A stretch of DNA of 63,916 nucleotides, filler included, from Collodictyon triciliatum (lineage: Eukaryota), in the NCBI GenBank assembly GCA_043381765.1. It is 38 parts of 38 records of this genome, joined end to end, with 100 filler letters (N's around TTAATTAATTAA, not from the genome) between each part and the next. Parts side by side here need not be neighbours in the genome. Positions count along the whole stretch, not along the records: positions 3,383 to 4,973 come from JBHJMP010010681.1; 37 more parts are not named here. The stretch is one strand, 5' to 3'. The position numbers and the translations under genes were made by a program. A model generated the notes under the pieces. The model made no database searches. It worked only from the letters and a program-made list of their open reading frames with translations, and was not told the DNA's origin. This document shows, piece after piece, positions 3,486 to 4,813 of the stretch (position 1 is the stretch's first letter; every line of letters starts with the position of its first letter).

Positions 3486-4813
3486 TTCAAGAAACTCGAA
3501 ACACCGGAACATTACAAAGAATGGGCTACAACGCATTTGCATCGTATCATTCCCAGCGGCAATGTAAATGGTATCGAATATGACGTCAAAGTCAATCCGA
3601 AGGAGTAAATTCCATGTCTGATTTAATTGAATCGCATTTTTGAGGACATTGGAACCAAACTGTTTCAACCAATCTCTATAAGAACTGCCAATATACCATG
3701 TCATATTACTCTAGATACTGCATATTTGATAGATCTATTAGTATCAACTTGAAAAACATTATTAATAAAGAAAATATCAGGATGCAAAGAGAACCTTTGG
3801 GATAACTTCTTTGAAATAAAAAAAGAGGGTCTTTAATCAAAGAGACTACAATTTTAAATACATGATACAAAAGCACGGCTTGGTAGTGTCATTATTGTTT
3901 GAAAAGAAAGGTATTTCAAATTCAAAATTCAAAATTAAATCGAAAGAACCAAGAATACATTCATATAGATGAACTTTCTAAAGAGCGGTTATCATTATTT
4001 GCGAAAAAATAGTTTGAGTGCACGCAAGCAAGTTTAATTTGGTTTACATGGTGGACGAGACAGGCAAGAAATTACGTTACACGGCACACCAAAGAAGACA
4101 TGACAGCAAATCTCTAAAAATCACAAAATACTCTTGCGCGAGAAAAAAGTACATGGCTTCAGGGTTATTCATGACAACAGATTTACAAAGTGCTATTTCT
4201 TTTGGTCTCATGACTTTTGAAGAGAATCAGCAGTTTGAAACATCAAGAGTATCTTCGATTGTTTTAGAGATAGAACTGAGTAAACATAATTCATGCGCGG
4301 TGGATTATGAAAAATTTCGAAAATATGTACCTATGAAATCAAGATACCAGATAGAACTTCCCAGATTTTATGAACACGTAACTTTTCGAAAGATGAGATG
4401 GAGACAGCATGTTAATACAAAAAGAAGTGAACAATTGTTCATGGACCGAATCGAAGAGACATTTGGCAAGGATGTTGTACTGGCGCATGGATACTGGAGC
4501 AGAAAATTTCAGATGAAACATGATATGCCAACAATCGGAAGAGGATTACGAAAAAATACTATCCAATCGTTTTGAAATAGTTATTGTAAATGGATTAAAA
4601 ACCTCCAAGATGTGCTGCAACTGCGAAAAAGAACTAGAATATATGAAACTGAAAGGAAATTCAAAAAAGGTGTATAGATATCTCATATGTAAAGAATGCA
4701 ATCGCTCAGAAAGCAACCTCAGTGTATTCATGACAAGGGACTTTATCGGCGCTAAAAATGTACTCAAGAAAATTCATTCAATTCTTCAAAAAAACATTCA
4801 CACTTTTCTCTAA
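3486..4813 (+). pseudogene. Fanzor1-type (TnpB-like) RNA-guided endonuclease, degenerate copy 1 (central and C-terminal part)
   Basis: Intronless frame with stops and frameshifts: YDVKVNP...FQPISIRTANIPCHITLDT; RuvC-I region IV*VHASKFNLVYM; KLRYTAHQRR; VLAHGYWS; IVNGLKTSKMCCNC; YLICKEC; RuvC-III MTRDFIGAKNV. Confidence 0.88.

What the first reader, a model, noticed from the sequence alone, without database searches (positions are those of the whole stretch)
3486..4813. Fanzor1-type RNA-guided nuclease gene (copy 1)
Seen: an intronless, interrupted frame with the TnpB/Fanzor C-terminal layout of RuvC-I region, GYWS, TSKMCCNC, a second CxxC and RDFIGAKNV. Known: Fanzors are eukaryotic OMEGA nucleases whose RuvC-II glutamate lies just before TSxxC. 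In this copy RuvC-I reads *VHAS (D to H) and the RuvC-II position reads NG (GGA, one change from GAA), so it is inactive. Inference: it belongs to a multicopy Fanzor family in this genome that is probably unannotated.
Basis: partly seen in the sequence, partly recalled or inferred. Interest (0 to 1): 0.85.

Follow-up and report, generated by a model that had tools for sequence, protein, structure and literature searches.

The report
Dead Fanzor1 nuclease gene fragment
This is a broken, truncated leftover of a jumping-gene nuclease (Fanzor1, the eukaryotic cousin of the bacterial ancestor of CRISPR-Cas12); it is real and correctly named, but it is an ordinary genomic fossil.

Summary
Window 3486-4882 (+) is a colinear, intronless remnant of a Fanzor1 gene. 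It covers about residues 190-648 of an intact 648-aa relative, P0001, which is 59% identical over the best piece. A profile of 40 full-length relatives matches the three solved Fanzor1 proteins end to end: SpuFz1 3e-100, PpFz1 1e-99, GtFz1 1e-79.

The copy is dead. It has seven in-frame stops, two frameshifts and a 5' truncation behind a 98-nt poly(A) run. RuvC-I reads H-A-S where 63 of 63 relatives have D-P and 59 of 63 have G. The alternative RuvC-II glutamate is Gly, where 63 of 63 have Glu.

A second dead copy lies at 53949-55421, 13% divergent. Differences are spread evenly over codon positions, which indicates neutral decay.

The window is a chain of 38 unplaced contigs of about 1.6 kb. 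Element ends, transposase, guide RNA and annotation status therefore cannot be tested here. Short near-identical and variant contigs occur in four sediment and freshwater metagenome runs.

Verdict: a new member of a known kind, of low interest.

The parts
3383..3480 (.). 98-nt poly(A) run at the start of the contig. Fanzor homology begins just behind it, so the first ~190 codons are missing.
   Evidence: Copy 2 has ordinary coding sequence at the corresponding place. The origin of the run (retroposon tail, microsatellite or assembly end) is not resolved.
3486..3818 (+). Segment A (frame 3), matching P0001 residues ~190-297 in the N-terminal half, upstream of RuvC-I. In-frame stops at 3606-3608 (TAA), 3624-3626 (TAA) and 3750-3752 (TGA).
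   Evidence: tblastn of P0001 gives 54% identity over 108 aa. Stops listed. Family HMM gives E=1.7e-12 on 3627-3749. The first two stops align with Tyr of P0001 and the third with Gly.
3818..3824 (+). A7 homopolymer holding the first frameshift (frame 3 to frame 1).
   Evidence: Overlapping tblastn segments 3504-3827 and 3820-4572; sequence.
3820..4551 (+). Segment B (frame 1), matching P0001 residues ~295-541: the TDG strand, RuvC-I and the helical insert up to the G(D/Y)WS motif. In-frame stops at 3970, 3979 and 4015.
   Evidence: tblastn gives 54% identity over 257 aa. Family HMM gives E=2e-50 on 4018-4572. The X1 contig covering 3914-4127 is identical, 0 differences.
4015..4029 (+). Ruined RuvC-I motif: TGA-GTG-CAC-GCA-AGC reads *-V-H-A-S where relatives read G-V-D-P-G.
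   Evidence: D in 63 of 63, P in 63 of 63 and G in 59 of 63 relatives. Copy 2 reads G-V-D-A-G. Two X2 metagenome contigs read 4015 T>G and 4021 C>G, giving G-V-D.
4551..4556 (+). A6 homopolymer holding the second frameshift (frame 1 to frame 2).
   Evidence: The X2 contig covering 4411-4602 has 1 difference and 0 gaps, so the shift is not an error private to this assembly.
4553..4882 (+). Segment C (frame 2), matching P0001 residues 542 to ~640: the alternative RuvC-II Glu position, the zinc finger and RuvC-III. Premature TAA at 4811-4813; the old frame ends at TGA 4880-4882.
   Evidence: tblastn gives 59% identity over 100 aa. Family HMM gives E=1.6e-21. Pfam PF07282 Cas12f1-like_TNB gives E=8e-4, below its cut-off.
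4592..4594 (+). GGA (Gly) at the alternative RuvC-II glutamate, three residues before TS and six before the first CxxC.
   Evidence: E in 63 of 63 relatives and in 40 of 40. The position is defined in PMC10711439.
4613..4699 (+). Zinc-finger (TNB) cysteines: CCNC at 4613-4624 and CKEC at 4688-4699.
   Evidence: The matching columns are C in 55 of 63 relatives (C562, C565). C587 and C590 are nearly invariant.
4736..4762 (+). RuvC-III motif RDFIGAKNV. The Asp is kept (4739-4741); the conserved Asn two residues later is Ile.
   Evidence: D in 63 of 63 and N in 59 of 63 relatives.
4883..4973 (+). 91 nt behind the old stop, up to the contig end. Fanzor1 elements place their guide RNA scaffold and right end here, but nothing could be shown.
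   Evidence: The fold of 4700-4973 is no better than shuffles (z = -0.92). There is no second copy and no related locus to compare.
53949..55421 (+). Copy 2, a second dead copy covering P0001 residues 26-499. It has many stops and frameshifts and a 61-bp insert. It is cut off at the contig start, and its homology ends about 100 nt before the contig end.
   Evidence: HMM E from 2e-21 to 1e-3 on seven pieces. Against copy 1 it shows 13.4% differences over 913 sites.

Best explanation
Window 3486-4882 is a decayed, 5'-truncated pseudogene of a Fanzor1 gene. Fanzor1 is the eukaryotic TnpB-like, RNA-guided RuvC endonuclease carried by DNA transposons.

The ancestral element encoded one intronless protein of about 650 aa. 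That protein would have bound a guide RNA transcribed from the 3' end of the element. It would have cut matching DNA with a D-E-D RuvC site that uses the alternative glutamate next to the zinc finger.

This copy can do none of that. It lacks the first ~190 codons, has seven in-frame stops and two frameshifts, and has lost two of the three catalytic residues (D to H, E to G).

A second dead copy in the window shows the family was repeated in this genome. Since their last common ancestor the two copies have drifted neutrally.

What is shown: family membership, the defects, the second copy and neutral divergence. What is inferred from the literature: RNA guidance, the transposon setting and the original activity.
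For: Family membership:
- An intact 648-aa relative, P0001, is 59% identical over 4018-4575. It aligns colinearly with the three frame segments.
- P0001 hits solved Fanzor1 proteins at 2e-28 (GtFz1), 3e-24 (PpFz1) and 4e-23 (SpuFz1).
- A profile of 40 relatives hits them at 3e-100, 1e-99 and 1e-79, covering profile positions 3-602 of 631 on SpuFz1.
- The window piece itself has these three chains as its top three PDB hits.
- 20 of 40 relatives match Pfam PF07282.
- phmmer finds 940 representative proteins at E<=1e-3 and 161 at E<=1e-10.

Catalytic state:
- Catalytic columns are D 63 of 63, E 63 of 63 and D 63 of 63. Copy 1 reads H, G and D.

Defects:
- Stops and frameshifts are listed.
- Four metagenome contigs from four runs are identical or differ by one base over 151-231 nt. 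They carry the stops at 3624, 3750, 3970, 3979 and 4015, the His codon and the 4552 frameshift.

Neutral decay:
- Copy 1 against copy 2 shows 41, 37 and 44 differences at codon positions 1, 2 and 3 over 913 sites. Chi-square p = 0.71 and K2P = 0.148.
Against: - Neither a transposon end, a target-site duplication, a transposase nor a guide RNA could be shown. The contig is 1.6 kb and no whole genome is held.
- The 3' region does not fold better than shuffled sequence.
- Pfam's own TnpB-type model hits the window piece only below its cut-off (E 8e-4, 20 bits against 26.3). It hits P0001 only at E 0.11.
- One stop (TAA 3606-3608) reads TAC in an otherwise identical X3 contig. At least that defect is polymorphic or an assembly error.
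- The host organism was not identified.
Confidence: 0.93

Rival explanations
1. The gene is intact in the living organism. On this reading the stops and frameshifts are sequencing or assembly errors on a poor small contig, or reflect a non-standard genetic code.
For: Both frameshifts lie in homopolymer runs (A7, A6). The contig is a 1.6-kb unplaced piece. One stop (3606) reads TAC in a near-identical metagenome contig.
Against: Independent metagenome contigs reproduce five of the stops, the His codon and the 4552 frameshift with 0-1 differences. The four stops that lie in well-aligned parts align with Tyr, Tyr, Gly and Gly of the intact relative (3606, 3624, 3750, 4015) and use both TAA and TGA, so no single reassignment fits. 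Invariant D, P, G, E and N are all replaced. Divergence from copy 2 is even across codon positions.
Confidence: 0.02
2. The contig is contamination: a bacterial TnpB or a giant-virus Fanzor, not part of the eukaryotic genome.
For: Short unplaced contigs are where contaminants gather. Fanzor genes also occur in large DNA viruses (PMC10530073 and PMC3627910 passages). Pieces of the stretch occur in sediment and freshwater metagenomes.
Against: GC of the two contigs (0.329, 0.341) sits in the window's range (median 0.355 over 38 contigs). There are two copies, 13% apart, both decayed neutrally and heavily, which is typical of repeats in a large eukaryotic genome. The family matches Fanzor1 over its whole length, including the N-terminal half absent from TnpB. 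A scan of 2.9 million viral contigs with P0001 found no relative.
Confidence: 0.03
3. The remnant has been put to a new use: a regulatory sequence, a source of a non-coding RNA that serves intact Fanzor copies in trans, or a domesticated nuclease-dead DNA binder.
For: The zinc-finger cysteines and the RuvC-III Asp are kept. Near-identical sequence is seen in four metagenome runs.
Against: Seven stops and two frameshifts leave no long frame; the longest is 185 aa and begins after a stop. Substitutions are neutral by codon position. The 3' region has no fold signal. Identity across samples is expected if they hold the same species.
Confidence: 0.02

Closest known systems
SpuFz1 / SPu-1-1p of Spizellomyces punctatus (PDB 8gkh; element SPu-1, Bao & Jurka 2013, PMC3627910)
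   Same: The family profile aligns over the whole protein at E=3e-100. Shared features: a single intronless ORF of similar size (633 aa against about 650), DPG at RuvC-I, Glu next to the TS-x-x-CxxC zinc finger, and RD at RuvC-III.
   Different: The window copy is a dead fragment. SPu-1's 33-bp inverted ends and TA duplications could not be looked for here. The window piece's direct similarity to SpuFz1 is weak (E 0.0025).
GtFz1 of Guillardia theta (PDB 9cer) and PpFz1 of Parasitella parasitica (PDB 9cf0)
   Same: GtFz1 is the best single-sequence PDB match of the intact relative P0001 (2e-28) and PpFz1 the second (3e-24). The matches include the N-terminal half as well as RuvC and the zinc finger.
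   Different: These are active proteins of other lineages, with large insertions and a longer N-terminus. No subclade (Fanzor1a-d) could be assigned here.
P0001, an unnamed 648-aa protein from a metagenome assembly
   Same: It is 59% identical over 185 aa and colinear with all three frame segments. All catalytic residues are intact, and its N-terminus is basic (MKKRKR...), like a nuclear localisation signal.
   Different: It is a different family or species, since 59% is far below the 87% between the two window copies. It carries no name, no organism and no accessible DNA.
Bacterial TnpB (IS200/IS605, IS607) and Cas12f
   Same: Same superfamily: a RuvC fold interrupted by a zinc-ribbon TNB domain. 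Pfam PF07282 matches 20 of 40 relatives, best E 9.5e-10.
   Different: Most TnpBs have a D-hydrophobic-G motif and the glutamate about 50 residues upstream of the zinc finger. This family has DPG and the glutamate six residues upstream, the Fanzor arrangement (PMC10711439). The family also has a long Fanzor1-type N-terminal half.

Membership tests
Fanzor1 | Sequence similarity over the whole length, including the N-terminal half, to experimentally characterised Fanzor1 proteins | tested here: met
   The family profile against SpuFz1, PpFz1 and GtFz1 gives 3e-100, 1e-99 and 1e-79. P0001 gives 4e-23 to 2e-28. The window pieces hit the family HMM at 2e-50, 1.6e-21, 1.7e-12 and 2.3e-8.
Fanzor1 | RuvC-I motif D-P-G (PMC10711439) | tested here: not met
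   The family has it: D 63 of 63, P 63 of 63, G 59 of 63. This copy reads H-A-S and copy 2 reads D-A-G. It is not met because of decay, not because of different ancestry.
Fanzor1 | Alternative RuvC-II glutamate six residues upstream of the first CxxC (PMC10711439; E536 of SPu-1-1p in PMC3627910) | tested here: not met
   The family has E in 63 of 63 and 40 of 40. This copy has Gly, GGA at 4592-4594.
Fanzor1 | [TS][TS]-x-x-C4 zinc finger followed by RD (Bao & Jurka motif, PMC3627910) | tested here: met
   TSKMCCNC ... CKEC ... RD lies at 4601-4741. There is a weak Pfam PF07282 hit, E 8e-4.
Fanzor1 | Guide (omega/f) RNA encoded at the 3' end of the element | tested here: inconclusive
   The fold of 4700-4973 gives z = -0.92. 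Rfam finds nothing there. No related DNA was available to test covariation.
Fanzor1 | Residence in a eukaryotic transposon (ends, target duplication, sometimes a transposase) | not testable with these tools
   The contigs are 1.6 kb. The 5' end is missing in both copies and the 3' end is present in one only. No genome is held.
Fanzor1 | Eukaryotic (or large-virus) host | tested here: inconclusive
   The window is AT-rich, full of microsatellites and made of unplaced contigs. Composition of the two contigs matches the rest. The organism itself was not identified.
Canonical TnpB (IS200/IS605) | D-hydrophobic-G at RuvC-I and a glutamate about 50 residues upstream of the zinc finger; about 400 aa | tested here: not met
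   Relatives carry DPG and the near-finger glutamate and are about 590-790 aa long. NCBIfam gives no TnpB hit.

The most novel reading that the evidence does not exclude
The two fossils mark an undescribed, compact (~650 aa) Fanzor1 lineage of a freshwater or sediment eukaryote, in which intact and possibly still active copies survive.

The support is indirect. Two metagenome contigs read G-V-D at the ruined RuvC-I motif. An intact relative with all catalytic residues exists, at 59% identity.

If such copies were found with their ends and guide RNA, they would add one more small eukaryotic RNA-guided nuclease to test.
Probability: 0.3. Interest if true: 0.3.

Novelty: new member of a known kind. 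Interest (0 to 1): 0.15.

Why it matters
It matters little. Fanzor1 genes and their decayed copies are known from many eukaryotes. [quoted passage not shown] The useful results here are these:
- Both catalytic losses are real.
- The family was repeated in this genome, and this copy cannot act.
- It is only a pointer that intact copies might be worth seeking in the full assembly.

Tried and rejected
- The whole genome of the window is not held, so copy number, termini and intact copies could not be sought.
- Locus scans with P0001 gave little. Metagenome contigs returned only one distant locus, L001 (21% identity, not examined further). Viral contigs returned none.
- A near-length protein search (101-324 aa) with 4018-4575 found nothing. 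The 'longer' search found only P0001.
- Cluster look-up of P0001-P0003 gave no names or organisms. The precomputed Pfam label PF26935.1 on P0001 was not reproduced by the local Pfam scan, and I do not know what it is.
- NCBIfam gave no relevant hit.
- The piece 4517-4813 alone has no significant PDB hit.
- RNA fold of 4700-4973 gave z = -0.92. Rfam found only a tRNA elsewhere in the window.
- Repeat search in both contigs found only short, chance-level repeats, apart from the 16-nt pair in copy 2.
- No RNA holder was listed among sequencing runs.
- The laid contigs gave no cover at 3486-3535, 3786-3835 or beyond 4835.
- Earlier findings of this scan hold nothing on this genome and no look-alike sequence.
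- The one paper holding both 'Fanzor' and 'Reticulomyxa' was seen in the listing only and not read. The guess behind that search rests on recall, and the organism remains unidentified.
- The first MAFFT run timed out and was repeated with faster settings.
- Supplementary tables of the Fanzor surveys, which may list this organism, could not be seen.

Full report
**Setting.** The window is not one stretch of chromosome. It is a chain of 38 contigs of about 1.6 kb, joined by 100-nt spacers made of 44 N, TTAATTAATTAA and 44 N. The finding lies wholly on the contig 3383-4973. That contig opens with a 98-nt poly(A) run (3383-3480). No whole genome is held for the window. Everything about copy number, element ends and neighbours is therefore limited to what these small contigs show.

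**Checking the observation.**
- TGA, then VHASKF, at 4015-4035.
- GYWS at 4489-4500.
- NGLKTSKMCCNC at 4589-4624, with GGA for the Gly at 4592-4594.
- CKEC at 4688-4699.
- RDFIGAKNV at 4736-4762.

The reading frame is broken as described. Aligned to an intact relative, the copy runs in three frames: 3486-3818, 3820-4551 and 4553-4882. The shifts fall in an A7 run (3818-3824) and an A6 run (4551-4556). In-frame stops lie at 3606, 3624, 3750, 3970, 3979, 4015 and 4811. The alignment has no gaps that would suggest introns. The old frame closes at TGA 4880-4882.

**What it is.**
- Pfam alone gives only a sub-threshold hit of 4517-4813 to PF07282, the Cas12f1-like TNB zinc ribbon (E 8e-4, 20 bits against a cut-off of 26.3).
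- A word-indexed search for longer proteins found one intact relative, P0001. It is 648 aa and 59% identical over the 185-aa piece 4018-4575.
- An exhaustive phmmer search of 1.84 billion representatives with the same piece found 940 proteins at E<=1e-3 and 161 at E<=1e-10.
- P0001 matches the three solved Fanzor1 proteins and essentially nothing else: GtFz1 at 2e-28, PpFz1 at 3e-24 and SpuFz1 at 4e-23. The remaining rows are myoglobin and similar noise at E>0.3.
- A profile of 40 full-length relatives matches them at 3e-100 (SpuFz1, profile positions 3-602 of 631), 1e-99 (PpFz1) and 1e-79 (GtFz1). Only TranC follows, weakly, at 3e-4 and 6e-4 on the zinc-finger end.
- The window piece on its own has these same three chains as its top three PDB hits, at E 0.0025, 0.0067 and 0.018. 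The 98-aa piece 4517-4813 alone has no significant PDB hit.
- 20 of the 40 relatives match PF07282 at E<=1e-3.
- An HMM built from 63 full-length relatives, with no window sequence in it, hits the window pieces at 2e-50, 1.6e-21, 1.7e-12 and 2.3e-8. Among 2328 six-frame ORFs it hits nothing outside the two copies below E = 0.03.

The family is Fanzor1 and the window stretch is a member by descent.

**State of the catalytic site.** I aligned the conceptual translation of copy 1 (X at stops and junctions) with 63 relatives. These were all proteins of 550-800 aa among the 155 held, less three cluster duplicates (P0153-P0155). Shorter and longer hits were left out.

| Position | Relatives | Copy 1 |
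|---|---|---|
| RuvC-I Asp | D 63 of 63 | H |
| Following Pro | P 63 of 63 | A |
| Following Gly | G 59 of 63 | S |
| Glu three residues before TS, six before the first CxxC | E 63 of 63 | G |
| RuvC-III Asp | D 63 of 63 | D |
| Asn two residues after RuvC-III Asp | N 59 of 63 | I |

The tool's own alignment of 40 relatives gives D364, P365, Y481, G521, E555 and D604 as the only invariant columns. A strict pattern, E..TS..C..C, was found in 53 of the 75 held proteins of 550 aa or more. The misses vary at the TS or Cys positions rather than at the Glu, as the column counts show.

The literature agrees on the role of these positions:
- Passages of PMC10711439 state that Fanzors have DPG at RuvC-I and an alternative glutamate six residues upstream of the zinc finger.
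- Passages of PMC10530073 report that D324A and E467A abolish cleavage by ApmFNuc, a Fanzor2.
- PMC3627910 gives the motif D-x-[TS][TS]-x-x-C4-x-RD and names G500 and E536 of SPu-1-1p as extra Fanzor1-conserved residues.

**Are the defects real or errors?** Four metagenome runs from four studies (one sediment, three freshwater) hold short contigs laid on this stretch. Four of those contigs are identical or differ by one base:

| Run | Span | Differences |
|---|---|---|
| X1 | 3914-4127 | 0 |
| X4 | 4203-4353 | 0 |
| X2 | 4411-4602 | 1 difference, no gap |
| X3 | 3579-3757 | 1 |

Together they reproduce the stops at 3624, 3750, 3970, 3979 and 4015, the His codon and the frameshift near 4552. 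The single difference in X3 is 3608 A>C, which turns the TAA at 3606 into TAC (Tyr). That one stop may be polymorphic or an error.

The same runs also hold contigs 8-15% different. Two X2 contigs read G at 4015 and G at 4021, which restores G-V-D. Other family members with an intact RuvC-I motif therefore exist somewhere in those samples. Whether they come from the same organism cannot be told.

**Second copy and mode of decay.** BLASTN and tblastn find one more copy, at 53949-55421 on the contig 53948-55527. It covers P0001 residues 26-499. Together the two copies span residues 26-648 of a roughly 650-aa ancestor. Copy 2 keeps the RuvC-I Asp (G-V-D-A-G). It also has many stops and frameshifts and a 61-bp insert flanked by a perfect 16-nt direct repeat.

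Over 913 aligned sites the copies differ at 13.4% (K2P 0.148). There are 41, 37 and 44 differences at codon positions 1, 2 and 3 (chi-square p = 0.71). That even spread is what neutral drift gives. Both have been dead since they split.

**Contamination and other rivals.**
- GC of the two contigs (0.329, 0.341) lies within the window's 38 contigs, whose median is 0.355 and range 0.213-0.502.
- Heavy neutral decay in two copies fits a repeat family of a large eukaryotic genome better than a bacterial or viral contaminant.
- A scan of viral contigs with P0001 found no relative.
- A non-standard code is excluded. The four stops in well-aligned parts align with Tyr, Tyr, Gly and Gly of P0001 and use both TAA and TGA.

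**What could not be shown.** A Fanzor1 element should have defined ends, a target duplication and a guide RNA overlapping the 3' end. Only 91 nt follow the old stop before the contig ends.
- No other copy covers that part.
- The region does not fold better than shuffles (z = -0.92).
- Rfam finds only a tRNA elsewhere in the window.
- No close locus could be fetched.
- The claim 'unannotated' could not be tested. The only related fact is that no called protein of 101-324 aa in the 5.8-billion-cluster collection matches the piece.
- The host was not identified. The N-terminus of P0001 (MKKRKR...) looks like a nuclear localisation signal, which fits what PMC10530073 reports for about 60% of Fanzors. 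That is an inference about the relative, not about this copy.

**How it worked.** By homology, the ancestral protein was an RNA-guided double-strand DNA endonuclease of a DNA transposon. Its RuvC site was built from the DPG Asp, the near-finger Glu and the RD Asp. The present copy is inert.

**Verdict.** It is a new, dead member of a well-described kind. It is of low interest, except as a hint that intact copies may exist in the full genome.

Noticed in passing
window 1-63916: The window is a chain of 38 contigs of about 1.6 kb in descending length order, joined by spacers of N44 + TTAATTAATTAA + N44. Neighbouring features across a spacer are not neighbours in the genome.
   Followed up: yes
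window 54777-54853: Copy 2 carries a 61-bp insert relative to copy 1, bounded by a perfect 16-nt direct repeat (54777-54792 and 54838-54853). It may be a small duplication, repair filler or the footprint of another element.
   Followed up: partly
window 55422-55527: Homology of copy 2 to copy 1 and to P0001 stops about 100 nt before the contig end. The remaining sequence is unrelated and richer in G+C. It may be a junction with another insertion or a deletion break.
   Followed up: no
window 3606-3608: The TAA stop reads TAC (Tyr) in an otherwise identical 179-nt contig of metagenome run X3, and also in a more divergent X1 contig. This suggests a polymorphism or an assembly error at this one stop.
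   Followed up: partly
window 40498-42080: One long open frame across the whole contig, with a single stop at about 41457. It encodes pentapeptide-like repeats followed by many nearly identical WD40-type units (SVCSIQGPNGE-WLASGS-D-TIRIWDVATGNQIKTLEGH).
   Followed up: no
window, many contig ends (e.g. 3200-3282, 15050-15112, 21700-21864, 60400-60562): Many contigs begin or end in microsatellites such as (CAAA)n, (AAG)n, poly(A) and (ATTATTAGT)n. This probably explains why the assembly broke there.
   Followed up: no
window 13929-15112 (-): A GC-rich stretch (about 0.48 over 14001-16000, against about 0.33 elsewhere) with a 411-aa open frame on the minus strand, flanked by (CAAA)n. It was not examined.
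   Followed up: no
window 60917-60990 (-): A tRNA gene (Rfam RF00005, 65.8 bits), the only Rfam match in the window.
   Followed up: no
window 5281-5707 (+): Two short open frames with RNA-recognition-motif-like sequence, separated by non-coding sequence. This looks like a split, intron-containing gene, which would fit a eukaryotic host. The domain was judged by eye and not tested.
   Followed up: no
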